From a virus (lineage: Duplodnaviria > Caudoviricetes), in the IMG/VR virus record IMGVR_UViG_3300037067_009230, positions 1 through 64,000 of that record: a stretch of 64,000 bases of DNA. One strand, written 5' to 3'. Shown here piece by piece: positions 25,039 to 40,474 of this stretch. The position numbers and the translations under genes were made by a program. A model generated the notes under the pieces. That model was not told the origin of the DNA. It ran no database searches and worked only from the letters and a program-made list of their open reading frames with translations. Position 1 is the first letter of the stretch; each line of letters starts with the position of its first letter.

Positions 25039-25044
25039 CATTGC

Positions 25045-25138
25045 ACCTAACGGACAGCGGTAAGAGTAGGCCGCTTTGTAGACTGCTCAAATTTAGTAAC
25101 AGCCTTTCTGCGGTATGCTTTATGACCGCTTGTTAGGC
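25045..25138. mobile_element. attC-like site (array 1)
   Basis: ACCTAAC...imperfect inverted repeat...GTTAGGC. Confidence 0.75.
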
Positions 25139-25153
25139 ACAGTACATTTTATT

Positions 25154-25429
25154 ATGATTTCAATTAAAAAAGCAGATTGGACAAAGAAAAGAGAATACTC
25201 AAAAGAAATGAAACTTGATGGATTTATTTCTTCCGTAGAATTAAGCGGAATGCACTTTACTCAGATTGATTCACTCGGAATTGATTCTCGAAAATTAGAT
25301 AATCCAAAAATACTTAAACAGAAATTTGAAGCAGATAATAATTTGCGTTGTATCTGTTTGGATTACGGAGGCAGAACTAAAAAATATTGGTACAAAGTTG
25401 GCGACTTGCGGAAGTTGTATTGTGCCTAA
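25154..25429 (+). CDS. Cassette-borne hypothetical protein (array 1)
   Basis: Bounded by GTTAGGCACA and TGTGCCTAAC (perfect complement); stop lies in the CTAAC core. Confidence 0.75.
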   Translation: MISIKKADWTKKREYSKEMKLDGFISSVELSGMHFTQIDSLGIDSRKLDNPKILKQKFEADNNLRCICLDYGGRTKKYWYKVGDLRKLYCA

Positions 25430-25483
25430 CTAGCTAGTAAACATACTAAAGGTATGTTTACTATACAAAAATCAGTAAATAAA
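25424..25483. mobile_element. attI-like anchor site, copy 1
   Basis: AAC-TAGC-TAGTAAACATAC-TAAAG-GTATGTTTACTA-TACAAAAATCAGTAAATAAA. Confidence 0.7.
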
Positions 25484-25518
25484 TACACTTTTAAGGCTAA
25501 CAAAATAATCAGGTAATT

Positions 25519-25800
25519 ATGGAAAATAAAACATTATTAGTAATCATTCCGGGACGAAATACCAAAAAGAGTATATTCAGTTTACTTGTAGCCGAGACGG
25601 GTGAGTTTTTAACATCTCGTTTCTGTACCAATTCTGATTTTGCTTATGGTGATTTATACTTAACCAGGGAGGATAAAGTAAAAGAATATAAAGAACGCTT
25701 TGGAGAAGTTGAGGTGAAGTACATAGATGAGACAGATATCTCAGTAGCCGAATTAAAATCCCGGAACAAGAAGTGGTTTGAATCATTACCGAAAAAATGA
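25519..25800 (+). CDS. Hypothetical protein (tandem paralog 1)
   Basis: 93 aa; LLVAETGE motif shared with the next gene. Confidence 0.75.
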   Translation: MENKTLLVIIPGRNTKKSIFSLLVAETGEFLTSRFCTNSDFAYGDLYLTREDKVKEYKERFGEVEVKYIDETDISVAELKSRNKKWFESLPKK

Positions 25801-25804
25801 AATT

Positions 25805-26087
25805 ATGAAAACACTATTAGTTATTGATCCAGGTAGAGATGTAATGTATGATTGCGTATTTCATTTATTGGTTGCTGAGACTGGGGAACATTTAGCATCT
25901 CATTTATGTAGTAATTATGGGTTTGCTAAATCAGACTTATATGAAGGGAGGCCAGAACGTATAAAAGAATTTAAGGAGAGATTTGGTGAAATAGAGATAA
26001 TAATTCATTGATGAAACCAATATCTCACCAAATGAATTATTATCTCGAAACAAAAAATGGTATGAATCTTTATCAAAAACAGAATAA
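25805..26087 (+). pseudogene. Tandem paralog 2, frameshifted near 26000
   Basis: N-part in one frame; FIDETNISPNELLSRNKKWYESL, matching the paralog 1 C-terminus, in another frame. Confidence 0.7.
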
Positions 26088-26088
26088 T

Positions 26089-26334
26089 ATGAGCATATAT
26101 ACAATTGAAAGACAATTAAGTGACAAAGCGGATAAATGGGAACTGCATAATGTCCAAAATGAGAACAGGGAATTAAAAAACCAAATCAATGAACTTGAAA
26201 GAAAAATTGGACAACTTGAAAGTGTAAATAGTAACAGATATTATGCACTTGAACAGCTTTTTAATATACTTGCGGAACATCCAGAATTCTCTGATGTATC
26301 AGATCAACTTTATACGTTAAGGAGTAATCTTTAA
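26089..26334 (+). CDS. Coiled-coil hypothetical protein (81 aa)
   Basis: Start reassigned to MSIYTIERQ. Confidence 0.7.
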   Translation: MSIYTIERQLSDKADKWELHNVQNENRELKNQINELERKIGQLESVNSNRYYALEQLFNILAEHPEFSDVSDQLYTLRSNL

Positions 26335-26346
26335 TTATTATAAGTT

Positions 26347-26511
26347 ATGACAAGAGAATTGGGTTATTACTGGGTACAATGGGACATCAAAGATAATTGG
26401 CTAATATTCTGGTTTAATGGTGGATATTGGCAATGCTGTGCAATGGGTAGAATTGAACTTAATGACAAAAATATATTGTCAATTGATGAACATAGACTTT
26501 ACCATAAGTAA
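26347..26511 (+). CDS. Small Trp-rich hypothetical protein (54 aa)
   Basis: Hand-translated MTRELGYYWVQW...; fills the gap. Confidence 0.55.
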   Translation: MTRELGYYWVQWDIKDNWLIFWFNGGYWQCCAMGRIELNDKNILSIDEHRLYHK

Positions 26512-26523
26512 AAAATTGATTAT

Positions 26524-26736
26524 ATGATAACTATTAAAGTAAAAGGGTGTGTTAAGGAAACAACGAATGGTTATATAAAACCAGAATGTCCATGTGTGTG
26601 GCCCAATAAGAATGGAGAATGGCATTGTCAGTTTGGTTGTTTTCTATCATTTACCATATTACATACAAAAGCTCCATCTGATTGTCCATTAAGAGAGGGA
26701 GGTGTTGAGATTATCTTAAGCGAAAGCGGGGGGTGA
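26524..26736 (+). CDS. Small Cys-rich hypothetical protein
   Basis: 70 aa with CPC, C...C and SDCPL motifs. Confidence 0.6.
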   Translation: MITIKVKGCVKETTNGYIKPECPCVWPNKNGEWHCQFGCFLSFTILHTKAPSDCPLREGGVEIILSESGG

Positions 26737-26760
26737 AAAATAAAATCTATAATTATTTAA

Positions 26761-26786
26761 AAAGGCTCTCATATTAGGGAGCCTTT
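26761..26786. terminator. Bidirectional terminator
   Basis: AAAGGCTCTC/GGGAGCCTTT between convergent genes. Confidence 0.75.
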
Positions 26787-26790
26787 CTTT

Positions 26791-26955
26791 TTATATCTTA
26801 TATGGAAGATAGTAGAATCGTTTCCTGACCCTTCTGGGCCCTTTTAACGAGTTCACATGCATACAGAGTATACCAGCCGCCTCTTTCTTTGTCCGGACCA
26901 CCAGAGTCTCCTTAGGGGCTTCTAAGTCAATAACAATGTGTCGTAGGTGTTTCAT
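26791..26955 (-). CDS. Small HTH/NUMOD1-like protein (54 aa)
   Basis: Hand-translated; KKEAAGILCMHVNSL helix-turn-helix pattern; ATGA overlap with the upstream gene. Confidence 0.5.
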   Translation of the reverse strand: MKHLRHIVIDLEAPKETLVVRTKKEAAGILCMHVNSLKGPRRVRKRFYYLPYKI

Positions 26956-27131
26956 TCAAACATAGCTTTATCTATTCTGGCAAACAGATCCTTCTCCTTA
27001 AGGGTATTCTTAAGACACTGCCCAAGGAGCCTACAGCTTACACAAGAGCCAAATTCCTTACTATCATCCTTATTTGCTTTACACAGGGCACAGTAGATAC
27101 TCCTGCAGGCTACGTGGATAAATTTTCTCAT
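26952..27131 (-). CDS. Small Cys-rich protein (59 aa)
   Basis: Start reassigned to MRKFIHVAC; TATCTTTG -7 element at 27153-27160 upstream. Confidence 0.55.
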   Translation of the reverse strand: MRKFIHVACRSIYCALCKANKDDSKEFGSCVSCRLLGQCLKNTLKEKDLFARIDKAMFE

Positions 27132-27159
27132 GATCTTTTTTATTGGTTTATGCAAAGAT

Positions 27160-28200
27160 AAGTAAAATTGTGTATTCTCTAAGTGGGTTTTACACATTTT
27201 CATCAAAATTATTGGGAAATATGGGTATATTTTATGTTATATAACATGTTTTTATAGGATATGTGCACATTTTCCACTTTTCTATGCGTGATGTACAGGT
27301 TATCGGGGTGGTCCCCTACCCCCTTTGTGTGTTACTGTGGAGGTTTTACACAATTTCAGGGTGAAATAGGGTCCCATATTCGGATAAAAAGGCATTTTTC
27401 TACTTAAAAAGAGGTGAGATCGGGGAATTTCCACTTTTCCATGGGTGGGGGACTATCCATCCGATTCACCCCCTGCCCTGCTCTGAGGGAAAACTCGATC
27501 CTAAAACCGCTCTCGAATACGACCGGGTCCCCTTTGTCTAATAGATTGACATACAGCAACATACGTTTCTATTTTACATAATGTTAATTATCGGACACAA
27601 ACATATTAAAACGCTTATTTTCAGGCTGTTATATGAATATTTGGGCAATATGACAGGAAACTGAGAAAATCATAGAGACATTAATAAAAGCGTAGGGGGT
27701 GCATAATCCTAATTCTATTTTTACAACTAGACAAATAATATGTTATAAAATATGTTTTACCTGCATTATATGTTATATAACATATTTTATAAATTGTAAC
27801 TGACTGATACACAGTATAAAGTAAATACCTGTAAATAATAGAGGATATAAAAGTCTTTTATTATTTATTACTTATACTATATAATAAAGGATCACTGTAA
27901 ATAATAGAGGATATAAAGATCCGAATATATTTTATTATGGCAATATAAAAATAATTGAAAATTATTACTCTCAATATCAGTAACTTATAAATAAAATGAA
28001 AATATTTTGAAAAATACCTATTAAAATATATTAATAAAGTAAAACTAAACGTCTCAAACGTTCACCCTGTGTGGTTTTGCACACGCAGAATTTTTATATT
28101 TTATTCCTTAAAAACTATGTAACTCACTGATAATCAGTCTTGACATTACATATCTTAATATTATATCTTTGCTACATGTTCTTTGACATATGAAATAAAA
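27160..28200. other. ~1-kb non-coding divergent region, candidate origin or genome-end region
   Basis: No ORF; G/C-run block at 27300-27530, then AT-rich block with 23-bp direct repeats (27829-27851, 27895-27917) and TGTTATATAACA palindromes. Confidence 0.45.
28140..28171 (+). promoter_or_regulatory. Host-type promoter for the rightward early operon
   Basis: TTG...TATCTTTG. Confidence 0.55.
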
Positions 28201-28205
28201 TATCA

Positions 28206-28246
28206 TCCCTGGCAGTTAAGCTGTGGCATTCGATCGCAACCAGGGA
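28206..28246 (+). ncRNA. Degenerate tRNA-like minihelix
   Basis: TCCCTGG/CCAGGGA stem, CAG-TTAAG-CTG hairpin, TTCGATC loop with a weak stem. Confidence 0.35.
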
Positions 28247-28278
28247 ACTAATTATTAACCACTTTAATACTTAAAAAT

Positions 28279-28506
28279 ATGAATAAAAAATTATTTGAGT
28301 CTATTATAGACAAACATAATGCAGGCATGTTTAATATCTCACGCTTAGAGTATTCGAGTGAACACGAAGAAGCAAAACAAATGCTTAATAAATTAAATAA
28401 AAAAAATTTAATTCACTTTGTTAATTATCTTACATGGTATAATGGTCAGTTATATGTAGGGATAAATGGTAAAGGCGAATTTGATTTATTTGATCTTCCA
28501 AAATAA
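28279..28506 (+). CDS. Hypothetical early protein
   Basis: 75-aa ORF preceded by the repeated intergenic motif. Confidence 0.7.
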   Translation: MNKKLFESIIDKHNAGMFNISRLEYSSEHEEAKQMLNKLNKKNLIHFVNYLTWYNGQLYVGINGKGEFDLFDLPK

Positions 28507-28533
28507 TTATTAACCACTTTAATACTTACTAAC

Positions 28534-28830
28534 ATGAAAACAATAGATTTTAAACGTATTAACAAGGACGTTAACGGAAATCCTCGTTATGTATGTCATT
28601 ATTCAGAGTTTATAACTGATAAGGATAGGGAAAATTTTCCTTACAAGCAACAAATATTTAAAGTAAATGGTTACTTAGATAATCTTTATAAAATTGCTCT
28701 AAATAGGGCTAAAACCCTTGGGGGTCGCAAATTCCACAATAAACAGTATGGCGGTGGGATTGTATTTCAATCTTATAATATCATATATTTGCAAAATAGT
28801 ATCTTTGAATTAATGAAAAAATATGAATAA
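28534..28830 (+). CDS. Hypothetical early protein
   Basis: 98 aa; DVNGNPRYV and GGGIVFQSYN motifs. Confidence 0.75.
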   Translation: MKTIDFKRINKDVNGNPRYVCHYSEFITDKDRENFPYKQQIFKVNGYLDNLYKIALNRAKTLGGRKFHNKQYGGGIVFQSYNIIYLQNSIFELMKKYE

Positions 28831-28859
28831 TGAAAACACAAACCAAAAAATCAATCATT

Positions 28860-29132
28860 ATGAAAACTTTAGAAAATTTAATCAACGAAAAAACCTACCA
28901 AGTCATTGACCAAGTTTCAAATCGCTTCAATTTTTGCGAATTAGTCGACATTGACAAACAACTTATTGAATATGCTGAAAATGGCACAGAATACGAATTA
29001 ACTGAACAATTACCAGAAGATGTAAAAAGAGCAGTTGATACAATGATTACAAACGATGTAAAAATTGAAGATTTTACAGGTGTTGTAAGATTTGAAAATG
29101 AAGATACTACTTATTATTTATTGACTTGGTAA
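28860..29132 (+). CDS. Hypothetical acidic protein
   Basis: Start reassigned to MKTLENL after AACCAAAAAATCAATCATT. Confidence 0.7.
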   Translation: MKTLENLINEKTYQVIDQVSNRFNFCELVDIDKQLIEYAENGTEYELTEQLPEDVKRAVDTMITNDVKIEDFTGVVRFENEDTTYYLLTW

Positions 29133-29133
29133 T

Positions 29134-29319
29134 ATGCTAAAACTTGAAGAAATAAGGGCGTTTTTAACCGAACGCCCTCTTCTTACTCAACGAGGTTTGA
29201 GTTTAGAAAGTGGCATATCTGACAGCCTTTTAGGCAAGATTTTAAGAGGTCAAAGAAATATGACCGAAGATGTTTCCGACAAGTTAGAACCGATACTCCG
29301 CAAGTACGGGTTTAAATAG
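29134..29319 (+). CDS. XRE/Cro-like HTH protein
   Basis: LTQRGLSLESGISDSLLGKILRGQR. Confidence 0.8.
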   Translation: MLKLEEIRAFLTERPLLTQRGLSLESGISDSLLGKILRGQRNMTEDVSDKLEPILRKYGFK

Positions 29320-29320
29320 C

Positions 29321-29450
29321 AGTTAACGTTAAATGTTTGTGCAGTTGGGGATTATAAACCACTGCACTGTCAAAATAGTACTAACTTAATAAATACAGAT
29401 TATGAGCGAATTAGCACAAGACCCCCAATTGCATAAACATATTGTTGTGC
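29321..29450. mobile_element. attC-like site (array 2)
   Basis: AGTTAAC-G...ATGTTTGTGCAGTTGGGG / CCCCAATTGCATAAACAT...GTTGTGC. Confidence 0.8.
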
Positions 29451-29704
29451 GTAGTTATTTATCATTCTTTGCAGAAAAACACAAGTGCCACATTGATAAA
29501 ATAATGGTTGGAATGGTTGGGGGTGATTTGCATGTATGGAAATACGACGAAGGCGCAGCAAATATTTTTACACAACTCGAAATCATATCCAATTTTGAGA
29601 CTGATGATAGAAAATGGATTTGTCAATTATGTGGCGAATTAGTTAACGGTAGAAATGTAACATTTGAAGAATATCACGAAGGTTGTGGTGGCCTCTGTGT
29701 ATAA
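29402..29704 (+). CDS. Cassette-borne protein with C-terminal Zn-finger-like motif (array 2)
   Basis: Starts inside the attC loop; CQLCG...H.GCGG; cassette ends GTTGTGCGTA / TACGCACAAC are complementary. Confidence 0.75.
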   Translation: MSELAQDPQLHKHIVVRSYLSFFAEKHKCHIDKIMVGMVGGDLHVWKYDEGAANIFTQLEIISNFETDDRKWICQLCGELVNGRNVTFEEYHEGCGGLCV

Positions 29705-29708
29705 TTAC

Positions 29709-29768
29709 GCACAACTAGCTAGTAAACCTACTAAAAGTATGTTTACTATACAAAAATCAGTAAATAAA
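29709..29768. mobile_element. attI-like anchor site, copy 2
   Basis: Two mismatches to copy 1 over 53 bp. Confidence 0.7.
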
Positions 29769-29783
29769 CAAAAAATTAAAGTC

Positions 29784-30337
29784 ATGAAAACAAAATTAAC
29801 AGAAGCACAGAAGCAAGCTAATAAAGAGGCTAAACGAGCTAAAATAAAAGCTGAAAAAAGATTAAAAGAATAGAAGCTGAAAAAACCCAACCAGATGTAA
29901 AGGATATTACAATTACTATTGAATGGAAAAAGTCTCGGACATGGGGCGCAAATCCACACGCAACGGCAGCCGTAAATTTTAAAGATAAAACAGCAGGCGA
30001 ATTTAAAACAGGTTTTTACCGTTCTCCTGAAGGTAATTATACTTGTTCTGGGTGTGGGTACGATAAAGAAAGTACGGTTATTGCTCAGATATTTAATGAC
30101 TTTCTGAAATACAAACTTTGGAGGCTTAGCCCTGAAAAATTAAAAGGTGGAAATGGATCCTTAGATAAAGGTCCGGCTCCATATGGAATTCATTTATATT
30201 CTGAAAATGAACCTTATTATGATGGAGGTATTGGAACAAGTTGCTATTATAATATCTCTGAATACATTGGTGGTAAATTTGAATGCATTGCAAGTGGTAA
30301 AACGTTTGATGTTTATAAATATACTGATAACGAATAA
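29784..30337 (+). pseudogene. Frameshifted hypothetical gene
   Basis: Frame stops at TTA AAA GAA TAG; the -1 frame continues RIEAEKTQPDVKDITITIEWKKS...GCGYDKEST to TAA at 30337. Confidence 0.65.
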
Positions 30338-30417
30338 AGTTTTTGCCTGTTACAAGTCAGGGATTAATACAGAGTATCCCCCAGATAAGGGGGTAATGTA
30401 ACCAAAAATTAAAAGAT

Positions 30418-30723
30418 ATGAAAACAGATAATCAAGTTACGGATGTAATTTTCCGTAAGTTTAAGGATGGAGATATAATAGCCTTATTTCCATATGAAAT
30501 TGATAATTATCATGGTGACTGTCTAAGTTATATGCATATTGGACAACATGGCGGAGCTAATTACTGGCATTGCTTAACAATAACTAAGCCAGCAATGATA
30601 AATGAATATGAGCCATTGATGCGGGAACTTATTTCTATTGGATATGAACTAAGAATAAGACAAAAAATAAATTACAAAGTGTTTTTATCTGCTATGAAAA
30701 TATTTAGAGATAAATATAATTAA
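30418..30723 (+). CDS. Hypothetical phage protein
   Basis: 101 aa; VIFRKF...IIALFP and SYMHIGQHG motifs. Confidence 0.75.
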   Translation: MKTDNQVTDVIFRKFKDGDIIALFPYEIDNYHGDCLSYMHIGQHGGANYWHCLTITKPAMINEYEPLMRELISIGYELRIRQKINYKVFLSAMKIFRDKYN

Positions 30724-30743
30724 CTAACCTAATACTTAACATT

Positions 30744-31127
30744 ATGAACTACAATGATCTAATAAACAAAATTTACCAAAAGACCATCGAAAATCAGTTT
30801 TATGTTGTAAATATTGAAGGTAAGGAACCTGTTACGGGCTATACTGTAAGCACAATTGGCAATGAATTAAGGATTAAATTAAGTGATTTTACACCCGAAA
30901 AAATTGATAAATATATTAAAACAAAGCTACTTAGGTATCCTTATGCCTATTTTGGTACATGGATCTTAGATGATACGGTATATATTGATGTTTTATATTA
31001 TACAGAATGCAAAGCTATTGCCATCGAAGCTGGAAAAATGTTTGGCCAAGTATGTATCTGGGATATCTCTAGTAAACAAGAAATATATTGGCTATCTGAG
31101 GCATTATTTGAATATAGTTTAAATTAA
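30744..31127 (+). CDS. Hypothetical phage protein
   Basis: 127 aa; GTW...VYIDV and Q.CIWD motifs. Confidence 0.75.
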   Translation: MNYNDLINKIYQKTIENQFYVVNIEGKEPVTGYTVSTIGNELRIKLSDFTPEKIDKYIKTKLLRYPYAYFGTWILDDTVYIDVLYYTECKAIAIEAGKMFGQVCIWDISSKQEIYWLSEALFEYSLN

Positions 31128-31170
31128 CCGGACTATGGAGCATGAGGCAGTCCGATTCTGCCTCCGGTTC
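31126..31170 (+). ncRNA. tRNA-like minihelix (acceptor + T arm, no anticodon arm)
   Basis: AACCGGA / 13-nt linker with TATGG / GGCAG-TCCGATT-CTGCC / TCCGGTT. Confidence 0.55.
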
Positions 31171-31205
31171 AAATGTTTTTAGTATTAACCAAAAAATCAA
31201 TCATT

Positions 31206-31304
31206 ATGAAAACTTTACTTATTCTTTTAATCGTATTTGTTGCTATATGCCTTCTAGGTATATTATACAACGGTTACACATGCTTCAAACAACTGTTTAA
31301 ATAA
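31206..31304 (+). CDS. 32-aa membrane peptide
   Basis: MKTLLILLIVFVAICLLGILY; same upstream motif as 28860. Confidence 0.55.
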   Translation: MKTLLILLIVFVAICLLGILYNGYTCFKQLFK

Positions 31305-31380
31305 CAGAGTGTCAAAGAACTACAGTATTTAAATATACTTAAAATTTCAATATGTTTAATTAAAAAAGTTGAAAAAAATT

Positions 31381-31881
31381 ATGAAAAAGTACAAATTGAC
31401 TAATCAGGAATTGCAGACTTACAAGGACTGCCAATGGGAAATCGGCGTATCAAAAACAACATCCGGAGAAGGTAATTTATGTTCCTCCGGATGGTTACAT
31501 TATTATGATAATCCTTTATTAGCCATCTTATTAAATCCTATTCATGCAGATATTAAAAATCCACGACTTTTTGAATGTAAGGCTGAAGGTAAACATCTTA
31601 GTGATAGAGGATTAAAAGGGGGTTGTACAAAAATGACTTTAATTAAAGAAATTACAGTCCCTGAAATTTCCAAAGAACAAAAAATTGCTTTTGGGATTCT
31701 TTGTTCTTTGGAAGTATATAAAGAAACAAAATATAAGAAGTGGGCTGAAAATTGGCTAAATAATACCGACAGGTCAGCAGATGCTGCTTATGCTTATGCT
31801 TATGCTGCTTATGCTGCTTATGCTTATGCTGCTGATGTTATAGATTTAATTAAAATAGCTGAAAAAGCTATGAAATATTAA
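31381..31881 (+). CDS. Hypothetical protein with Ala/Tyr low-complexity repeat
   Basis: ADAAYAYAYAAYAAYAYAAD encoded by GCT/TAT tandem repeats. Confidence 0.75.
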   Translation: MKKYKLTNQELQTYKDCQWEIGVSKTTSGEGNLCSSGWLHYYDNPLLAILLNPIHADIKNPRLFECKAEGKHLSDRGLKGGCTKMTLIKEITVPEISKEQKIAFGILCSLEVYKETKYKKWAENWLNNTDRSADAAYAYAYAAYAAYAYAADVIDLIKIAEKAMKY

Positions 31882-31888
31882 AGTAAAT

Positions 31889-31933
31889 AACCCTGTATGG
31901 TACTCGATCAGGTTCGACTCCTGATCCGGGTTC
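31889..31933 (+). ncRNA. tRNA-like minihelix
   Basis: AACCCTG / TATGGTACTCG linker / ATCAGG-TTCGACT-CCTGAT / CCGGGTT. Confidence 0.55.
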
Positions 31934-31934
31934 A

Positions 31935-32201
31935 ATGAGTAATATTACTCAGTTATTTAAATTTATTGATATGAAAATAGAACATTTTGAATCCAAAGAA
32001 TCTGGCAAAGTTTCTTTAGTATGCCAAGATCCATTATTTAATCAATGGAATAATTTAAAACAATTAATGTCAAAGGCTGTAAGTATTCGTGAGTGGAATA
32101 TTTTACGGGGGCTGGCTAAACTTACCTATCCAATTGAATTAATAAATAGACTGGATGCTTCTGGCTTTATCGTTTCCTTAAATCTTAAAAATGAGAAATA
32201 A
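31935..32201 (+). CDS. Hypothetical protein
   Basis: 88-aa ORF. Confidence 0.65.
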   Translation: MSNITQLFKFIDMKIEHFESKESGKVSLVCQDPLFNQWNNLKQLMSKAVSIREWNILRGLAKLTYPIELINRLDASGFIVSLNLKNEK

Positions 32202-32743
32202 TGGAAAAGGAAACAGTAACAATTGAGATTCTAAATCGAGCTATTGAAGTAGAGCCAGTAACTGCTATACATCCAAAGGGTGTAAAAATATTCATGGAGA
32301 GAATCATAGGTACCACAAAGTATCTTTCAAACAACAGAAAGATCTTATATGATGTATCCTTCATTAGTTTGTATAATTACAATAATAAAATTATTGATGG
32401 GTGTTTTGCGATTGATGGGTTTGTCTATAAAATTGATGCATGGGCTTCCATAGATTTTCCGGATAGATTCTTACAGATACTGGATAAAAATGTACCAGAA
32501 TGTAGGGGTATATGTTTTTATCTTGATAATAAACTCTATGCTGAGAATGTACCATTTCTCAAATGTGATGATATGCAAGACCATCTTCTTACCCAAAGAA
32601 ATGATGGTCTGATGTGGTTCAACAAGTTAAAAATTGTGGACAAATCAGGAAACAAGACAGTATTTTACCCTTCCATCAAAGCAAAGAAACTTCATGATCA
32701 ATTTAAAACGCAAAAAGAAGGATATAGTACCACAGAAGCCTGA
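32201..32743 (+). CDS. Hypothetical protein
   Basis: 180-aa ORF coupled to the upstream gene. Confidence 0.7.
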   Translation: MEKETVTIEILNRAIEVEPVTAIHPKGVKIFMERIIGTTKYLSNNRKILYDVSFISLYNYNNKIIDGCFAIDGFVYKIDAWASIDFPDRFLQILDKNVPECRGICFYLDNKLYAENVPFLKCDDMQDHLLTQRNDGLMWFNKLKIVDKSGNKTVFYPSIKAKKLHDQFKTQKEGYSTTEA

Positions 32744-32858
32744 TATTAAAGTTGCTTATTATGGGTTCCATTGCCCTATTTGTGGAGTTTACGTACCAGC
32801 CGGGACTAATTATTTAAACTTTAATGGGTTTAAAATGTGTATTAAAGAGTCTAATTAA
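32694..32858 (+). CDS. Small Zn-finger-like protein
   Basis: HCPICG motif; overlaps the upstream gene by 50 nt. Confidence 0.4.
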   Translation: MINLKRKKKDIVPQKPDIKVAYYGFHCPICGVYVPAGTNYLNFNGFKMCIKESN

Positions 32859-32922
32859 TTAGCCTCTTATCGAATAAACAGTAAATTGTATGTAAAAACA
32901 TCTATATTAGTAGATAATTATT

Positions 32923-32966
32923 AAACAAAAAGGGGGTAAGATTGATTTCTTACCCCCTTTTTGTTT
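32923..32966. terminator. Bidirectional terminator between convergent modules
   Basis: AAACAAAAAGGGGGTAAGA / TCTTACCCCCTTTTTGTTT perfect inverted repeat. Confidence 0.9.
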
Positions 32967-32972
32967 TAAATT

Positions 32973-33416
32973 TTAAAGAGACTCTTTTAATAAAATCTTT
33001 GATTCTGTTAATATCTGTTTTCTCCGATTCTTTAACTTAATGATTGTAGTATCAATCATAGCCAGTAAAGTATTTCTATCCAGTTCAAAAAATATTGTAA
33101 GTAACCCCGTATTTTGTAACTCATTTGGGATATAAACTCTTTGAAATCCTACTGGTTGAGTAACCTCTGCCTCAGATGTATTATCACCTGTATGAACCAT
33201 CTCCAGAGGTTGCCCACAATTATTAGCCGGGTAAATAGGACTGATAATAGGTCGGGCACCGTTATTAGGAAGGGTTTCCATAATAATGTCACCGTTTACA
33301 ATGTCACAATTTATCATAGTTTTACCAAATAAACCTAATTTGGCTATCCTATAATCAATAAATTTAAGTTCCTCATCCAAGTTCCCAGCCTTATTTAAAA
33401 ATTTTCTCAGTTGCAT
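32973..33416 (-). CDS. Hypothetical protein
   Basis: 147-aa ORF. Confidence 0.7.
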   Translation of the reverse strand: MQLRKFLNKAGNLDEELKFIDYRIAKLGLFGKTMINCDIVNGDIIMETLPNNGARPIISPIYPANNCGQPLEMVHTGDNTSEAEVTQPVGFQRVYIPNELQNTGLLTIFFELDRNTLLAMIDTTIIKLKNRRKQILTESKILLKESL

Positions 33417-33420
33417 AATA

Positions 33421-34425
33421 TTAGTCTTTATATACTGTACCTCTATATATTTTCATGTTACTCATAGCAAAATCTTTTCCAGATGTCTCAATTAACGCAA
33501 ATCCCTGATTCCATTTATTTATAGGATTCCATTCCGGATGAAGTCCACAAAGACACCCAATAGACCACCAGCTCATAAGTTTCTCGTTTATGTCAAGTTC
33601 TGAATGAGCACTGGATCTATGATGATGAGACACCACAGCAGAACTAAGAGTTTTTAAGAATAAACCTCTGGCCGGATTAACTGGAGAAGCTGCCCCACCC
33701 TGTAATTCATGCCCATGAACCCAAGGTAATCTCCCAGTATATATAATCTGATGTTCAATAACATCAACATTTTCAATCCCCCTGATCTTAATTATATTCT
33801 CAAATTTATATTCTTCCATATCAAGTAACTCAGGTGCCTTTACTCTTAAATAATTTTCCCATCGTTCTTCATGATTACCAAGTTTCCAGTAAATCTTTAC
33901 GTCTGGAAAAGTTTTTTGAAGTATATTAAGAAATTCAACCCACATCCATAGTTCATCACTAAAAGATCTATTTCTCATATCCTTATTAAATTTGGATAAT
34001 TGATAACAATCAAGACCATCCCCATTGATCAGTATAAAATTTATCTTTCGATGTCCTATTGTATAATCTATCATTGCATTAATAGCCTCAACATTATGAT
34101 ATGGAAAATGAGAATCTGAAAATACTAATCCATTATTAAACCTTTCTGGTATATGAATAGGATTCCATGTAGTTTCATCTGATTCAGGAATCGCAAATGG
34201 GTTTAAAGATCCAGCCTCTTTAAGATATTTATTAGTACTTAATCTTTTTCTGTCATTATTACCATTTTGCCCTCTATAATACCTAATTATATTCCTAGCG
34301 GATTCTACATTTAAAAATATGGTAGAATTTTCTGTATAAATCTTTTTAGCTAAAGTAAGGGAAGGAACATTTGGAAATCTTTCTAAGTATTCTTTTACTA
34401 CAATACCTGTTATTTTTTTATTCAT
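33421..34425 (-). CDS. Calcineurin-like metallophosphoesterase with N-terminal HTH-like region
   Basis: SDSHFPYH, INGDGLD, GNHE, HGHE, SHHH motifs. Confidence 0.85.
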   Translation of the reverse strand: MNKKITGIVVKEYLERFPNVPSLTLAKKIYTENSTIFLNVESARNIIRYYRGQNGNNDRKRLSTNKYLKEAGSLNPFAIPESDETTWNPIHIPERFNNGLVFSDSHFPYHNVEAINAMIDYTIGHRKINFILINGDGLDCYQLSKFNKDMRNRSFSDELWMWVEFLNILQKTFPDVKIYWKLGNHEERWENYLRVKAPELLDMEEYKFENIIKIRGIENVDVIEHQIIYTGRLPWVHGHELQGGAASPVNPARGLFLKTLSSAVVSHHHRSSAHSELDINEKLMSWWSIGCLCGLHPEWNPINKWNQGFALIETSGKDFAMSNMKIYRGTVYKD

Positions 34426-34464
34426 AACGTTAAGTTTAATAAGTATTTACAAATATACTACTAT

Positions 34465-35811
34465 TTAGTAAACTATGAATAAATTTTTACTAGGCCTTGT
34501 ACAATTTGTATAATAAATTCTATTTCTTTCATACACATTATAATTAGTTTCAATATCCCATTTTAGAACATAAGCATTTTCATAAGTACTACCCTGTGCC
34601 TTATGAGCTGTAATAGCATATGAATATTTTACTTGATGCCATTGTTGGAGAAAATTATAATAGTCTACCCATGCAGATCTGGATTGATACGACCCCTGAG
34701 AATAACTTTTAGCTAAAGCTACTTGTAAAGTGCAGAGTTTATTAAAAGTTGCTTCTGAATCCTCATGTATAATTCGGAGCATATACTCATTATATTTCTC
34801 ATAAGTATATACTCGAACTTGAGTGTTATAATATTTTAAGGTGTATTCATCATTTAAGACTTCTTGCATGACAGTTGCCGATAAAACTTCCATCTCCTCA
34901 TTTGTATTAATTAATGTATGCTTATCTTTTATAACTGGACCATCAGCAATTAATTTATCTCCTTTTATAATTTTTGGAATATCTACTCCAAAAATATATT
35001 CTCGAATTCTTTTATTATAATCATCAATAGTATTGTTTCTCCATCCTATTACTTTTATGTAATCAATAGATCTTTCATAGTTTGGACTTGTAAACATTGG
35101 AAGAATCTTATTGATAAAATATTCTTCTTCTTTGTCCTTTTTTATTGGAAAAACCCCTCCCAGATCATTCTTAACCTCCTGAGGATTCAATATTTGAACC
35201 GGGGCATGTATCCTTGTCCTAATATTAGTGGCATTTTCAATTATAGGATTACCAGCTGCTTGTCTAATAATAGAATTAAGAGAACTTGTTTCAATTCCAT
35301 ATTTTAATCTAACCTCCTTATTAAACGGTAAAGAAGATTCTTGACCTACCGGGGGAATCTGTAAAGGATCTCCAACCAGTATAATTTTCTTCCCATTTTC
35401 AGATAAAGGAATTAAAGTTTCAAATATTATATCATTAATCATTGAAACCTCATCAACTATAATATGGGTATATTCATCTGCTGGAAATCCTAATGAATGA
35501 TCCGGCTTAAATGATAAGGTTCCATCATTATTAATAACTTGTCTCATCCCAAGTGCTGCGTGGATGGTACTAAACGTCACATCACATTTAATCATATCTT
35601 TGAGTACTTTGACAGCCTTATGGGTGGGGGCTGTTACAATTACACGACATTTATTTTTTTTAATATATCGTACAATTTCATCAAGTAAATATGTTTTACC
35701 AGTTCCGGCATATCCTTGTAATAAATATATTCCTCCCCCATCTAATTTTAAGAACATTAAAATAGCTTCATATGCTTTTGGTTGATCTCCGAGTAAGTTT
35801 TTTTCTTCCAT
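34465..35811 (-). CDS. Dda/RecD-like SF1B DNA helicase
   Basis: GYAGTGKT, IIVDEVSM, LVGDPLQIPPV, YAITAHKAQGSTY. Confidence 0.9.
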   Translation of the reverse strand: MEEKNLLGDQPKAYEAILMFLKLDGGGIYLLQGYAGTGKTYLLDEIVRYIKKNKCRVIVTAPTHKAVKVLKDMIKCDVTFSTIHAALGMRQVINNDGTLSFKPDHSLGFPADEYTHIIVDEVSMINDIIFETLIPLSENGKKIILVGDPLQIPPVGQESSLPFNKEVRLKYGIETSSLNSIIRQAAGNPIIENATNIRTRIHAPVQILNPQEVKNDLGGVFPIKKDKEEEYFINKILPMFTSPNYERSIDYIKVIGWRNNTIDDYNKRIREYIFGVDIPKIIKGDKLIADGPVIKDKHTLINTNEEMEVLSATVMQEVLNDEYTLKYYNTQVRVYTYEKYNEYMLRIIHEDSEATFNKLCTLQVALAKSYSQGSYQSRSAWVDYYNFLQQWHQVKYSYAITAHKAQGSTYENAYVLKWDIETNYNVYERNRIYYTNCTRPSKNLFIVY

Positions 35812-35900
35812 TTGCTATAATTGTTAATATCAATCTACATAATAAAGTTAGAGTACAGAAAATTATTATAACTACAATACCTATTGTAATTGAGAAAAAA

Positions 35901-36341
35901 TTAAATATTGCTCTCATGACTAAAATAGGGATTTGCTTGTTTTGATAATCTATCTACAATCCTTTGTCTAGGGTTCGATCTTGGAACCCAATCAAAATGT
36001 ATCGATTTATCTTTCATGTAACTTAACATATTATTAATCTGAGCGTTAAGTTCTATCAGTTTAGGTGCACGCACTCTATATTTACCCTGTAATTGATGAA
36101 TTACTATCTCGGAATCACTAAATATTATAGCACCTGTTATGTTTTTCTTAAGTGTAAGGAGTTTTGACATAGCTGCTTTAATGGCTAAATACTCTGCCTC
36201 GTTATTACTTCCTAGATGTTCACCGGAAATCCTTAAAGTTAAAAAGGGTTTTATGCTTTTTTCATAAAAAAATGCCACACCCATACCCATCCTACCATCT
36301 AGGTAATAACAAGAACCATCACAATGAATGTGTATGATCAT
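35901..36341 (-). CDS. rnhA: Ribonuclease HI-like protein
   Basis: CDGSC, SNNEAEY, SDSEIVIHQL, WVPR..N..VDRLS. Confidence 0.9.
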   Translation of the reverse strand: MIIHIHCDGSCYYLDGRMGMGVAFFYEKSIKPFLTLRISGEHLGSNNEAEYLAIKAAMSKLLTLKKNITGAIIFSDSEIVIHQLQGKYRVRAPKLIELNAQINNMLSYMKDKSIHFDWVPRSNPRQRIVDRLSKQANPYFSHESNI

Positions 36342-37027
36342 AATAACTTCTGTTTTATTACTTGTAAATGGGCAGCTACAAAAAGATCTGCTAGAACATT
36401 AATAGTGATTGGCTGCCTCATTAATTCAGCCTGTTCTTTATTTGTATAGAATCCAGTCTCTGTAAGAATTGCAGGCATTCTAGTCTTAGTAAGAACATAA
36501 AATTTTGCCTCCTTATCTTTATCTCCATCTATCATATCAGCTCGCATTTGCCACCCCATATTAGAAAGATGATTATAAAATATATCAGCTATCGGATCTG
36601 ATTTTGTCTTTCCGGGAGATGTAAATACCTCAATACCGGATGCAGCGTGTGTTTTAAACGCATTAGCATGAATTGAATGATAGTAGCATTTAAATTTATG
36701 ATCTGATAAATATTGCATGGTATTATTAGCCCTTTCAACTCTTAAAGGCACTGTAATGTCATCATCCTCTGATACTATAATAGAATATGGAAGGTCTAGA
36801 TCATTTAATTTAGATGCATATGTCCATGCTAATGCCCTATTAAATACCCCCTCATAAAAAGTAAACTCAGGATATACATACATTTTTGATGGTGCAGTAG
36901 TATATACACAGTCTAATATCCCACCGTGTCCCGGATCTATAAGAGGTACAATTTTTGAATCTCTGCCATAATGATATGATGGTATCTGATTCTTTATATC
37001 ACTGATAATTTTAAGAAGTGCTTTCAT
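36338..37027 (-). CDS. N-acetylmuramoyl-L-alanine amidase (Amidase_3), endolysin
   Basis: IDPGHGG, YEG.FN, SIHANA, PAILTETGF. Confidence 0.9.
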   Translation of the reverse strand: MKALLKIISDIKNQIPSYHYGRDSKIVPLIDPGHGGILDCVYTTAPSKMYVYPEFTFYEGVFNRALAWTYASKLNDLDLPYSIIVSEDDDITVPLRVERANNTMQYLSDHKFKCYYHSIHANAFKTHAASGIEVFTSPGKTKSDPIADIFYNHLSNMGWQMRADMIDGDKDKEAKFYVLTKTRMPAILTETGFYTNKEQAELMRQPITINVLADLFVAAHLQVIKQKLL

Positions 37028-37572
37028 TTATAAATTTGTTTGAATAATTCATAACTGATATCCCTAAAGAATATGTCAGATTTAAATCCAATAATATCCA
37101 GATTCCACCCCATAAACTGTGCTGCTGTGTATCTCATCCATTCAATATGTTCGATTAAAACCATAGGAAAAAAGATATAATATAAATCTTTTGGCATGCC
37201 GTTCTCTCGAACCATCAAAAATGGTTTTTTCTTAGCAGCAACAGCATCATTTTTACACTGGATCATAAACCTGTATATGACAGAGTTAGTCCTAATGAAC
37301 GGTGCGGTCTTTTTTAATCCAAGGTTCTTATAGAACTTAGTCTCCACACTATAAGGGAAATCAAATTCTCTGTCTACATTAATAACATCTCCGCAAATAT
37401 CACCACGTTCTTTCCATCTTAATCCCCCGGACATAGGTACTCTAACAAATTCATGCCCGGTCCATTCCTGTAATAAATGAGTAACATTTAACTCATTTCT
37501 ATTCCCTTTGAGTTTACTATTAATCCTGTTATTTGTAAGTTTAATGTCAAATAAATCTTCGGCTACGTTCAT
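37024..37572 (-). CDS. PD-(D/E)xK Holliday junction resolvase-like nuclease
   Basis: KG.RNE, RVP.SGG, GDVI, SVETK. Confidence 0.75.
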   Translation of the reverse strand: MNVAEDLFDIKLTNNRINSKLKGNRNELNVTHLLQEWTGHEFVRVPMSGGLRWKERGDICGDVINVDREFDFPYSVETKFYKNLGLKKTAPFIRTNSVIYRFMIQCKNDAVAAKKKPFLMVRENGMPKDLYYIFFPMVLIEHIEWMRYTAAQFMGWNLDIIGFKSDIFFRDISYELFKQIYK

Positions 37573-38039
37573 AATACCTTATTTATGAAATAATGTTTCC
37601 AAAGTCTTTCCTGCTCTGTCTTATCACCACTGGTCTTAATCCAGTATAGTAAAGATAGGAAAAAATTATTCTTCCAACCCCCATTTTTATCAAACCATTT
37701 TTTAAACTCCTTTGTCTCATTCTCTTCCTTTACTTTTTTCTTACTATTCTTTTCCATTTCAAGTATTTTACTAACTTGGTCAGAAAAAGCAGCACCCCGA
37801 AGAGTAAATGGTCTATTTTTTGATTTGTTAAACTCTTTACATTCGGCTATCCACATATTACGATACTTAGTAAATAGTGCATCGGCTTCTTCACCTTCAG
37901 TATCCTTTAAATCGGACCGGTAAGTAAAAAATAAATTTATAAGTGTGGTAAGAGTCTCCTGTTTCTTTGCTCTTAATCTTCTAACAAATCTGGGATCTTT
38001 CTCCTTAGTTTCGTTTTGAACAACCTTTTTCTTTTCCAT
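37569..38039 (-). CDS. Hypothetical basic protein
   Basis: 156-aa ORF in an operon. Confidence 0.7.
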   Translation of the reverse strand: MEKKKVVQNETKEKDPRFVRRLRAKKQETLTTLINLFFTYRSDLKDTEGEEADALFTKYRNMWIAECKEFNKSKNRPFTLRGAAFSDQVSKILEMEKNSKKKVKEENETKEFKKWFDKNGGWKNNFFLSLLYWIKTSGDKTEQERLWKHYFINKVL

Positions 38040-39985
38040 TAGTTTAAAATTAAATTGTTATTTTCTTTAGTAAAATTTATTGTATTAGCATATAAGTTAT
38101 CCAGAGTACTGGAATGAGATATTACATAAACACTCTTTCCTTCATCGGCTTTCATCCTAATTAAATCAAATACAGCATTTTCACCATCCTCATCCAAACC
38201 ATCAAAAACTTCATCCATAATTAATAGGTTGATATCTGTATTAATTGAAATGAGATCGTACATCGCAAAAATTAAAACGATATCTAATCTTTGCTTCTCA
38301 CCCCCTGAAAATTCTTTATAGTCTTTATTTAATTTATCCCCTAAAGAGCATATTGTCGTAAAAGGCTTGCTAGATTTCGTTAAATCAATTGCAAATTCAA
38401 TTGATATTCCAAGCCGTTCTCCATATTTGCGTGTATTCTCGTTAAGCTGGGCCAGCATAGCGTTAAAAATAAATGCTTTTATTCCACTGGCACCAAATCC
38501 CTTCTCAGACCACCATTTTATTATTTTAATCTCTTCTTGTAAATCCGTGATATTACTATTAAGTGATTCAGATTTAATCTTCATTAAAGTAATTGCTTTC
38601 CCCTGTGATGCTATATTAAAATCTGGAGCCTTTTCATTCTGTAAAGATTTTAACCTAATCTTTTCATTTTCTAATAGGACTATCTCAAATAGGGTATTTT
38701 CAATGTTATTAAGTTCTTGATATCTGGCAGCAACTACATTGTATCTATCATTTGTGGTAGTAATATCGTTTTTAACTCTTTTAATCCCTTCTGTGACATC
38801 ATCTAAAGCCTGTGTTAATTGAAGTAATTTATTATTTAACTCAAGTATCTGAGTATTTAAATCTTCAATCTCAGCCTCAGCCTCTTTGTTAGCAGTCGAA
38901 TAAATCTTTTCAATATTTGCATGATTAGTTTGATTAATAGCCTGATGACATACAGGGCATAATCCTTTTACAATAGATTCTTTAACAATACCTTTATTTT
39001 CCTCAATCTCTTTCTTAATTTGATTTATTCTAGCAGTAAACTGGTTAATTCTATAATTATTATTATCAATCTCAGACTGAATACGTTTCTGGTCATTATC
39101 AATCTCTACCAAATCCAATCGATACTTATTCTTGGTACTAGTGAGTTCATTATATTCCTGTTCAATCTTATCATGTTCTTCTTTGTCATAATCAAGAGGA
39201 GGAACAACTACTTTTAACTCATTATTATAATTAGTAATAAGAGTTTCAAAACCCTTAATATTTGATTCACAGTCTGAAATCTTATTAGCCTGATTCTGAC
39301 CCCACTCCTCACAAAGACGTTTATCCCGAACAAGGGTAGCCTCTGCCATAGTAATCTGAGAATTAAGGGTATCAGCCTCAGATATGATCTTACTAAGATT
39401 TTGATTCTTCTCAGTAAGATCCAGTTCGGCTTTATGCTTACAGATATTAACCCACTCTACATCAAATAATTGCTCAAACAAGGCTCTCTTATCTTTATTA
39501 TCCTGAGTGATTAATCGGGCCATCCTTTGACCAAACATTACAGAGTTCATAAATGTCTTAGGATCAGTGCCAAGGAGTTTATTAATTCTTTCCTGAGTTT
39601 CATCTTTATTAATTCCTGGGAAAAGTTGTTCATTATTTTTCCAGAGCATGAGTGAATCATTACCCTTTAAACCGTTAGTATCTCCCTTATAATCCAAATG
39701 ACGAGCAATGGAGTAATCTTCTCCATCTACTTCAAAATACGTTATTACTCTGGTTCCTTTCCAATTTGAGGGTCTTATCTCTTCCCATGAAGCGACTTTA
39801 TCCTGATTAGTTTCTTTTAAGTTTGTACCAAATAAACACCATACCACAGATTCAAATAATGTTGTTTTTTTAGTACCATTAACACCTTTAATAAGATTTA
39901 ATCCGGGACGGTCAAGATCAAATATTAATTGATTGACGATACCACGGAAACCATCTATTATTGCTTGTTGAAATTTAATTTTCAT
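38039..39985 (-). CDS. sbcC: SbcC/Rad50-like ATPase
   Basis: GVNGTKKTT Walker A variant, CPVC zinc hook, FSGGE signature, MDEVFDGLD, SH. Confidence 0.9.
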   Translation of the reverse strand: MKIKFQQAIIDGFRGIVNQLIFDLDRPGLNLIKGVNGTKKTTLFESVVWCLFGTNLKETNQDKVASWEEIRPSNWKGTRVITYFEVDGEDYSIARHLDYKGDTNGLKGNDSLMLWKNNEQLFPGINKDETQERINKLLGTDPKTFMNSVMFGQRMARLITQDNKDKRALFEQLFDVEWVNICKHKAELDLTEKNQNLSKIISEADTLNSQITMAEATLVRDKRLCEEWGQNQANKISDCESNIKGFETLITNYNNELKVVVPPLDYDKEEHDKIEQEYNELTSTKNKYRLDLVEIDNDQKRIQSEIDNNNYRINQFTARINQIKKEIEENKGIVKESIVKGLCPVCHQAINQTNHANIEKIYSTANKEAEAEIEDLNTQILELNNKLLQLTQALDDVTEGIKRVKNDITTTNDRYNVVAARYQELNNIENTLFEIVLLENEKIRLKSLQNEKAPDFNIASQGKAITLMKIKSESLNSNITDLQEEIKIIKWWSEKGFGASGIKAFIFNAMLAQLNENTRKYGERLGISIEFAIDLTKSSKPFTTICSLGDKLNKDYKEFSGGEKQRLDIVLIFAMYDLISINTDINLLIMDEVFDGLDEDGENAVFDLIRMKADEGKSVYVISHSSTLDNLYANTINFTKENNNLILN

Positions 39986-40011
39986 TTTATTAATAATTAA
40001 TAAAAAGTGTG

Positions 40012-40071
40012 TTTATTTACTGATTTTTGTATAGTAAACATACTAAAGGTGTGTTTACTAGCTAGTTAGCA
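40012..40071. mobile_element. attI-like anchor site, copy 3
   Basis: Reverse complement of copy 1, with the 5-nt hairpin loop inverted; G|TT core at 40065-40067. Confidence 0.7.
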
Positions 40072-40448: not shown

Positions 40449-40474
40449 TTAATAATTACCCCTACGCACCGGGA

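What the first reader, a model, noticed from the sequence alone, without database searches (positions are those of the whole stretch)
25424..40071. Three near-identical 53-bp attI-like anchors, each capping a cassette array
Seen: TAGC-TAGTAAACATAC-N5-GTATGTTTACTA-TACAAAAATCAGTAAATAAA occurs at 25431, 29716 and (inverted) 40012-40064. Each copy directly follows the AAC core of the last cassette in the sense direction. The core reads YAAC-TAGCTA-GTAAAC, like a tyrosine-recombinase site with a 6-bp palindromic spacer, followed by a 12-bp hairpin. The element has no second GTT core. Inference: these are fixed phage-owned landing pads, giving three independent capture loci in one genome.
Basis: partly seen in the sequence, partly recalled or inferred. 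Interest (0 to 1): 0.9.

Follow-up and report, generated by a model that had tools for sequence, protein, structure and literature searches.

The report
Repeated end-caps of phage gene-cassette arrays
Three near-identical 53-base elements in this phage each begin exactly where a row of small mobile gene cassettes ends, so they most likely mark the spot where cassettes were inserted, but the phage has no enzyme of its own to do this.

Summary
The 53-nt element occurs three times in the 76-kb phage record and nowhere else I could search. Each copy starts at the first base after the terminal AAC of a cassette.

The cassettes are real. A profile built only from hairpin units of other phage contigs finds only the window's array hairpins (E 2e-20 to 7e-6). 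Cassette ends covary. In 62 of 63 other contigs such arrays run into a small Xer-like tyrosine recombinase, preceded by a conserved docking site that starts after the same AAC.

The "attI-like" reading is therefore right about position, but three points fail:
- This phage encodes no recombinase.
- The element is absent from the five relatives' contigs examined.
- It does not resemble the canonical docking site in sequence or structure.

Two unrelated recombinase-less phages, including cultured Polaribacter phage P12002L, also end their arrays with their own repeated caps. All eight caps abut a cassette end.

Best reading (0.5): a lineage-specific, possibly portable docking unit. The main rival is an expression adaptor. 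This scan has noted the cassette system and orphan docking sites before on other DNA, and Qi et al. 2023 described phage attC clusters.

The parts
25431..25483 (+). Element copy 1 (cap of array 1). Its palindrome is at 25435-25463 and the A-rich tail at 25462-25483. The next gene starts at 25519.
29716..29768 (+). Element copy 2 (cap of array 2). Its palindrome is at 29720-29748, with one C.T mismatch. The next gene starts at 29784.
40012..40064 (-). Element copy 3 (cap of array 3). Its palindrome is at 40032-40060. The sbcC-like gene starts at 39985.
24739..25430 (+). Array 1. It begins with a truncated first cassette that keeps only the right half of its hairpin (24739-24805). A complete cassette follows, headed by hairpin 25048-25135 and ending ATTGTGCCTAAC at 25430.
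29328..29715 (+). Array 2. It is a single cassette headed by the hairpin at 29324-29457. Its GTTG/CAAC cores covary, and it was inserted after GTTAAC at the end of the 61-aa gene.
40065..43437 (-). Array 3. It holds eight cassettes (79 aa, DNA methyltransferase 276 aa, 112, 78, 100, 98, 56 and 118 aa). Their hairpins are at 43316-43441, 43052-43173, 42030-42153, 41662-41785, 41142-41415, 40898-41022, 40688-40735 and 40317-40445. The 79-aa gene, and with it none of the nine genes between sbcD and sbcC, has a homologue in the relatives' contigs.
43439..43831 (-). A 130-aa gene (nucleoside 2-deoxyribosyltransferase-like) coupled to sbcD. It has no hairpin head, and its end, GGTGTCTAAC, carries the upstream junction of array 3.
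43828..44808 (-). A 326-aa metallophosphoesterase, read here as SbcD-like from the Metallophos match to its homologues and its position beside sbcC. In four of the five relatives' contigs examined it directly abuts sbcC.
38039..39985 (-). SbcC-like ATPase (648 aa), the resident core gene directly downstream of copy 3.

Best explanation
The 53-nt repeat is the fixed, non-cassette side of the junction at which hairpin-headed gene cassettes were inserted, between AAC and TAGC. It caps three arrays of an integron-like cassette system that is common in phages of Bacteroidota. In other phages the same position holds a conserved docking site followed about 53 nt later by a short Xer-like tyrosine recombinase gene. 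Here the position holds a lineage-specific unit: a three-frame stop (TAA, TAG, TAG), a 12-5-12 palindrome that contains its own AAC/GTT pair, and an A-rich leader that runs to the next resident gene. I read it as an orphan, probably portable docking unit, the functional equivalent of attI. Shown here: the junction position, the membership of the arrays in the family, and the breakpoint behaviour of AAC| in other phages. Inferred: that cassettes entered at this site, that the palindrome is what a recombinase uses, and that the enzyme came in trans (from a co-infecting phage or the host) or has since been lost.
For: (1) All three copies start at the base after a cassette's AAC. The cassette ends are verified by covariation: the 6 nt after GTTA at a cassette's head are the reverse complement of the 6 nt before TAAC at its tail, including the odd GTTG/CAAC pair of array 2.
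(2) A profile of 166 hairpin units taken only from other contigs hits only the window's array hairpins (E 1.7e-20 to 6.8e-6) and nothing else significant in the genome.
(3) In 62 of 63 contigs with at least 1 kb upstream of the recombinase, such units lie upstream (324 upstream against 13 downstream). Bacterial homologues of the enzyme lack them, with 1 of 70 showing two or more units.
(4) The arrays in those contigs end ...TAAC|TAYTATATRTA, 44-65 nt (mode 53) before the recombinase ATG. In 7 of 8 locus pairs that are at least 90% identical downstream of the junction, the upstream DNA is unrelated.
(5) Arrays 2 and 3 begin at xTAAC|G directly after a resident gene without a hairpin head, as expected if cassettes entered between AAC and the cap.
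(6) The cap is part of the 3.8-kb insertion between sbcD and sbcC.
(7) Two unrelated recombinase-less phages do the same with caps of their own. Contig G001 has 3 identical copies and cultured Polaribacter phage P12002L has 2. All 8 caps abut a cassette end and none is unoccupied.
(8) There is no host-type promoter (TAnnTTTG) or terminator in or beside the element.
Against: No tyrosine, serine or HUH recombinase is encoded in the record, which is 92% complete. There is no sequence similarity to the canonical docking site: the profile gives no hit at E up to 100, and the best pairwise scores lie within the range of shuffles and of other upstream regions. The structure differs too, since 67 canonical docking regions have no stem longer than 7 bp. 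Mismatches in the left arm are not compensated.
Confidence: 0.5

Rival explanations
1. Expression adaptor. The hairpin plus A-rich tail is an RNA- or DNA-level regulatory unit, such as an insulating hairpin, a leader, or a promoter for a phage-modified polymerase. It restores translation or transcription of the resident gene behind a promoterless, highly structured cassette array. On this view its position at AAC| reflects only where the arrays stop.
For: Every copy lies 16-36 nt upstream of a gene start. The right arm and tail are invariant, whereas the left arm and loop vary. The sbcC operon otherwise depends on read-through from a promoter at 46403, across 3.8 kb of cassettes. The same operon block uses RNA processing elsewhere, in the form of a twister-P3 ribozyme at 30339-30409. 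The caps of G001 and P12002L also run into a gene start through an A-rich tail.
Against: There is no Bacteroidota -7/-33 promoter motif and no U-tract. The distance to the ATG varies from 16 to 36 nt. Rfam finds nothing at the element. The stem is too short for RNase III and its mismatches are not wobble pairs. No copy stands without an array (8 of 8 occupied in three phages), which is unexpected for a general regulatory repeat.
Confidence: 0.2
2. Passive relic. The cap is a gene-less or collapsed cassette remnant, for example a fold-back copy of a hairpin arm. It spread within the genome with array ends by homologous recombination or gene conversion and has no present function.
For: The palindromes are perfect or near-perfect with tiny loops, unlike the bulged cassette hairpins. 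In two of the three copies here, and in G001, the cap ends in ATAAAC, which resembles a cassette 3' core. The loop orientation of copy 3 is flipped relative to its flanks, as expected from exchange between palindrome arms. The phage encodes SbcCD, a Dda-like helicase and RNase H.
Against: The 34-nt right half is invariant in all copies, while the flanking DNA is unrelated. The same architecture recurs in three unrelated phages, always at the array terminus.
Confidence: 0.15
3. PeSL-like unit. The element is a stem-loop terminator plus early promoter that flanks accessory genes and shuffles them by homologous recombination, as in T4-type phages.
For: It is a repeated stem-loop of about 57 bp between small accessory genes in a variable region, which is long enough for phage homologous recombination. 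The PeSL concept is described in PMC2839356 and PMC4122927.
Against: It has no promoter consensus for the host polymerase and no terminator tail. The repeats sit only at array ends, not between every gene. The cassette boundaries are defined by the AAC/GTT cores and hairpins, not by this repeat.
Confidence: 0.05

Closest known systems
attI site of bacterial integrons (for example attI1, with IntI1)
   Same: It lies at the boundary of an array of promoterless cassettes separated by folded AAC/GTT hairpins. The homology break falls exactly at the conserved core. It would be the double-stranded partner for hairpin sites.
   Different: There is no adjacent integrase. The enzyme linked to this cassette family elsewhere is a 254-267-aa Xer-like recombinase that scores below the IntI cut-off (144.8 bits against 265). 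The genes point towards the site rather than away from it. The junction is AAC| on the sense strand. The element carries a palindrome that attI sites lack.
Canonical docking site of the phage cassette arrays (TAAC|TAYTATATRTA, about 53 nt before the recombinase ATG). I defined it here from 68 loci. Earlier notes of this scan also report it.
   Same: It holds the same position after the last cassette's AAC. The first two bases are also TA. The length to the end of conservation, or to the next gene, is similar at about 53 nt.
   Different: There is no detectable sequence similarity. The element has a 12-bp stem where canonical sites have none. No recombinase gene follows it.
[quoted passage not shown] 2023 (PMC9892861), including Polaribacter phage P12002L
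   Same: These are recombinase-less arrays of attC-like hairpins with methyltransferase and small genes in a phage of Bacteroidota. One P12002L attC was recombined by IntI1 in that paper. In P12002L I find two identical terminal repeats abutting cassette ends.
   Different: In the text searches I ran, that paper does not mention Xer or Bacteroidota and treats attI only for classical integrons. I did not read it in full, so I cannot rule out that it describes terminal repeats. The P12002L cap has only a weak hairpin and an unrelated sequence.
PeSLs (promoter-early stem-loops) of T4-type phages (PMC2839356, PMC4122927)
   Same: They are repeated stem-loop modules at the borders of accessory genes in variable regions, and they are proposed to drive modular shuffling.
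   Different: PeSLs combine a terminator with a sigma-70 promoter and act through homologous recombination. Here no promoter or terminator signature was found, and the cassettes have site-specific core boundaries.

Membership tests
Integron attI site | Lies next to an integron integrase gene (IntI, with its extra domain) | tested here: not met
   A six-frame search of the whole 76-kb record found no PF00589 match. The recombinase tied to this cassette family elsewhere scores 144.8 bits against TIGR02249, below the cut-off of 265, and the match is split into two stretches.
Integron attI site | Marks the array boundary, with the crossover at the conserved core | tested here: met
   All three copies start at the base after the AAC of a cassette whose two ends covary. 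The same junction is a sharp breakpoint in 7 of 8 near-identical locus pairs. The polarity is reversed relative to integrons.
Integron attI site | Bound and recombined by the integrase | not testable with these tools
   This needs a recombination or binding assay.
Canonical phage docking site (recombinase-proximal) | Matches the consensus ATT.c..aTAAC|TAttATATATAaa | tested here: not met
   An nhmmer profile of 68 sites gives no hit at the elements at E up to 100. Pairwise scores are no better than shuffles or other upstream regions. No canonical site lies in the arrays.
Canonical phage docking site (recombinase-proximal) | Followed within 44-65 nt by the Xer-like recombinase gene | tested here: not met
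   The downstream genes are a 93-aa ORF, a roughly 185-aa ORF and sbcC.
Hairpin cassette family (attC-like units), applied to the arrays rather than the element | Unit of about 125 nt: TAACG, arm, loop holding the start codon, arm, GTTA. Matches a profile built from recombinase-linked arrays. | tested here: met
   There are eight significant hits (E 1.7e-20 to 6.8e-6), all on the sense strand of the three arrays. The element itself is not hit.
PeSL (stem-loop plus early promoter) | A host promoter consensus directly after the stem-loop | tested here: not met
   The host-type -7 motif TAnnTTTG marks about 15 intergenic promoters in this genome, but none lies in or next to the elements.
Intrinsic terminator | A G+C-rich stem followed by a T-run | tested here: not met
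   The terminator scan does not list the element. On the sense strand the stem is followed by TATACAAAAATC.
Described RNA families (Rfam 15) | A covariance-model match | tested here: not met
   No match at the elements at E up to 1.

The most novel reading that the evidence does not exclude
The caps are portable, gene-less docking units. Each is a short hairpin-plus-leader module that can seat itself at any AAC in a phage genome. It then lets a recombinase-less phage collect cassettes using a Xer-like recombinase supplied in trans by a co-infecting phage or by the host. This would explain why each genome has several identical, always-occupied copies and why caps differ between phages.
Probability: 0.25. 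Interest if true: 0.8.

Novelty: new variant of a known kind. Interest (0 to 1): 0.6.

Why it matters
Integrons are the classic gene-capture machines of bacteria. Phages were thought to carry only stray pieces of them. The evidence here, and earlier notes of this scan, point to a large phage-borne counterpart run by a simpler Xer-like enzyme, with genes facing the docking site. This window adds a further layer. Phages without the enzyme still keep several cassette arrays, and each array is closed by an identical, genome-specific cap that starts exactly at the crossover point. If the caps are functional docking units, a phage could gain anti-defence or methyltransferase cassettes at several loci by borrowing a recombinase. 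That makes directly testable the question of how virulent phages exchange small accessory genes. If instead the caps are expression adaptors, they show how arrays can sit inside essential operons, here between sbcD and sbcC, without silencing them.

Tried and rejected
Exact and degenerate searches for the element found nothing informative. The 23-nt tail found nothing in IMG/VR. The palindrome plus tail found nothing in JGI metagenomes. The palindrome ends alone gave 26 IMG/VR hits, none preceded by AAC-TAGC or carrying the extended palindrome.

The SbcC protein found no close relative in IMG/VR, and megablast of 16 kb against cultured phages gave no match. The relatives reached through the protein search (53-64% SbcC identity) lack the element.

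The idea of an N4-type hairpin promoter for a virion RNA polymerase was dropped. The 2093-aa protein shows no polymerase family match, and host-type promoters are used throughout the genome.

Homology between the element's tail and the recombinase 5' region or leader was not above controls.

Bacterial homologues of the recombinase (40-53% identity) do not carry upstream arrays, so they gave no candidate enzyme in trans.
Full report
**The observation**

The element is real. The palindrome pattern matches at 25435-25463, 29720-29748 and 40032-40060, against none in 100 shuffles. The 22-nt tail is identical in all three copies. The whole record holds only these three copies; it is an IMG/VR phage contig of 76,155 bp, estimated 92% complete.

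In the sense direction each copy has three parts. First comes [C]TAAC or CAAC followed by TAGCTAG. Then comes a 12-5-12 palindrome. Then comes TATACAAAAATCAGTAAATAAA. A gene start follows 16-36 nt later.

The right arm plus tail (34 nt) never varies. The left arm and loop carry all the differences, and none is compensated. As single-stranded DNA the stems fold at -9.4, -6.1 and -6.1 kcal/mol, with z-scores of -6.0, -3.2 and -2.6. In copies 1 and 3, CTAACTAGCTAG places a stop codon in all three frames.

**The genome**

Genes run on the minus strand from 323 to 19549 (the virion module). They run on the plus strand from 19941 to 32743 (small early genes). They run on the minus strand again from 32973 onwards (replication genes and large proteins). 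The two blocks converge on a bidirectional terminator at 32916-32973.

The Bacteroidota -7 promoter motif TAnnTTTG sits upstream of about 15 operon heads. Start codons lack Shine-Dalgarno sequences. The host is therefore almost certainly a member of the Bacteroidota.

Copy 3 lies directly upstream of an operon of SbcC, a PD-(D/E)XK nuclease, an amidase, RNase H and a Dda-like helicase.

**The cassettes are real**

Between the small genes next to each element lie long hairpins. On the sense strand they read YCTAACG, an arm of about 20 nt, a loop of about 70 nt that holds the A-rich initiation region, the ATG and the first codons, the second arm, and then GTTAG.

A right-arm motif of one such hairpin found 11 IMG/VR contigs. 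Several of these carry arrays of up to about 11 units. In L019 the array runs into a 267-aa tyrosine recombinase with Phage_integrase (1.3e-35) and Phage_int_SAM_4 domains.

Using that enzyme as a query, at least 89 viral contigs carry relatives. Of 63 loci with at least 1 kb upstream, 62 have hairpin units upstream on the same strand. In total there are 324 units upstream and 13 downstream. As a control, bacterial homologues at 40-53% identity lack such arrays: 1 of 70 has two or more units.

A profile built from 166 units of those other contigs finds, in this genome, only the array hairpins. It gives eight significant hits (E 1.7e-20 to 6.8e-6), including the orphan right half at 24739-24805. 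No other hit in the genome is significant.

The enzyme is Xer-like. Its best match is XerA, and it falls below the integron-integrase cut-off.

**The junction**

Cassette ends covary. The six bases after GTTA at a cassette's head are the reverse complement of the six bases before TAAC at its own tail. This holds in the window and, for example, in 12 of 15 consecutive units of L018. By this rule the last cassettes of the three window arrays end at 25430, 29715 and 40065, the base before each element. Array 2 shows a covarying GTTG/CAAC pair.

Arrays 2 and 3 start at xTAAC|G straight after a resident gene that has no hairpin head. This is what insertion between AAC and the cap would leave behind.

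In recombinase-linked arrays the last cassette is followed by a conserved site, ATT.c..aTAAC|TAttATATATAaa, lying 44-65 nt (mode 53) before the recombinase ATG. In 7 of 8 pairs of loci that are at least 90% identical over the 120 nt downstream of the junction, the upstream 120 nt are unrelated, and the break falls 6-16 nt from the junction. AAC| is therefore a true recombination breakpoint in this family, and the window's element stands where the docking site stands.

**What does not fit the attI reading**

- The genome has no tyrosine recombinase, no serine recombinase and no HUH transposase, and none turned up among the 40 small proteins scanned.
- Relatives with 53-64% SbcC identity lack the element. 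In four of the five relatives' contigs examined, sbcD directly abuts sbcC. The closest relative (L008) has three small genes there and ends its short array with a canonical-type site, TAAC|TACTTATATGT. None of the window's nine inserted genes has a homologue in those contigs. The cap is therefore part of the insertion and not a conserved pad.
- A profile of 68 canonical docking sites does not find the element. Pairwise scores are no better than shuffles, random genomic 53-mers or other upstream regions.
- Canonical docking regions have no stem longer than 7 bp.

**The comparative result**

One orphan array (L014) ends CAAC|TAATGG, then a perfect 10-4-10 palindrome, then an A-rich leader, then the ATG of a DnaB-like helicase. 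This is the same layout as in the window.

In that contig (G001; 41 kb, 44% complete, not related to the window phage) the cap occurs three times without a mismatch. Each copy starts at a different cassette end, and no recombinase is present in the fragment.

In cultured, virulent Polaribacter phage P12002L, Qi et al. 2023 (PMC9892861) described a cluster of attC sites lacking an integrase and showed one attC recombining through IntI1. Two identical terminal elements of at least 65 nt follow ATTGTGCCTAAC| and ATTGTGGGTAAC| there. No integrase is annotated in that genome.

So 8 of 8 caps in three unrelated recombinase-less phages start at a cassette end, are identical within a genome, and are unrelated between genomes. 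None was found without an array.

**Interpretation**

The exact coincidence with the crossover point, the always-occupied state, and the recurrence in independent phages all tie the caps to the recombination system rather than to general gene regulation. I found no host promoter, terminator or Rfam match at the element.

The arrays sit inside operons that start at promoters at 46403 (-), 22361 (+) and 28164 (+), so a promoter at the cap is not required.

The lack of similarity among caps and to the canonical site argues against simple sequence-specific recognition by one enzyme. An RNA-level or leader role for the invariant right half therefore remains a serious rival.

I put 0.5 on an orphan, possibly portable docking unit. 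I put 0.2 on an expression adaptor, 0.15 on a functionless relic and 0.05 on a PeSL-like unit.

**Novelty**

Paper searches found no description of a Xer-run phage integron or of array caps. Phage attC clusters themselves were published in 2023.

Earlier notes of this scan report the same cassette system and orphan docking sites in many other genomes. I treated those notes as leads and re-derived the points used here.

Noticed in passing
window 30339-30409 (+): A twister-P3 self-cleaving ribozyme (Rfam RF03154, 51.9 bits against a gathering score of 39.9). It lies between the roughly 185-aa gene after cap 2 and the gene at 30418, so the early operon is probably cut here.
   Followed up: no
window 29784-30337 (+): The gene behind cap 2 is split. 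A 29-codon ORF (29784-29873) overlaps a 160-codon open frame (29855-30337) at an A-run. This is either a frameshift, programmed or otherwise, or an assembly error in a homopolymer.
   Followed up: partly
window 32973-34425 (-): The 147-aa and 334-aa (metallophosphoesterase) genes are inverted relative to relatives L006 and L007, where they close the early block and converge on the Dda-like helicase gene. Here they follow that gene on the same strand, behind their own TAnnTTTG promoter at 34457.
   Followed up: partly
window 25435-25463, 29720-29748, 40032-40060: Read as 11-7-11, the asymmetric centre of the palindrome is CTAAAGG, CTAAAAG and CTAAAGG on the + strand in all three copies, although copy 3's flanks are inverted. 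On the + strand, copy 3's mismatch becomes a G.T pair.
   Followed up: partly
window 27207-28278: A 1-kb region with no clear coding potential. It holds three copies of the palindrome ATGTTATATAACAT (27229, 27735, 27765), a direct repeat TGTAAATAATAGAGGATATAAA, G+C-rich stretches at 27300-27540, and a canonical Bacteroidota promoter at 28141-28171. It is possibly a regulatory switch next to two opposite-strand ORFs (26791-27206).
   Followed up: no
window 40374-40310, 24740-24800; L010-L020: The loop and right arm of one hairpin type encode a conserved N-terminal peptide (about MEH.NLN...QLGIGAVSS) fused to unrelated proteins in at least 11 viral contigs. The recombination site therefore doubles as a translation start and an N-terminal tag.
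   Followed up: partly
window 41662-41785 (-) versus L015:310-432: The same 124-nt hairpin is roughly 90% identical, by eye, in two phages, while the genes on both sides differ. The hairpins are better conserved than their cargo.
   Followed up: partly
L126-L205 (bacterial loci): My hairpin detector found 34 units downstream but only 8 upstream of bacterial homologues of the recombinase. I did not look into what the downstream units are.
   Followed up: no
window 19560-19690: AT-rich tandem-like repeats (TATACTATCTATATAC and similar) lie in the divergent gap between the virion and early blocks, flanked by outward promoters at 19684 (-) and 19899 (+). This is possibly an origin or a control region.
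   Followed up: no
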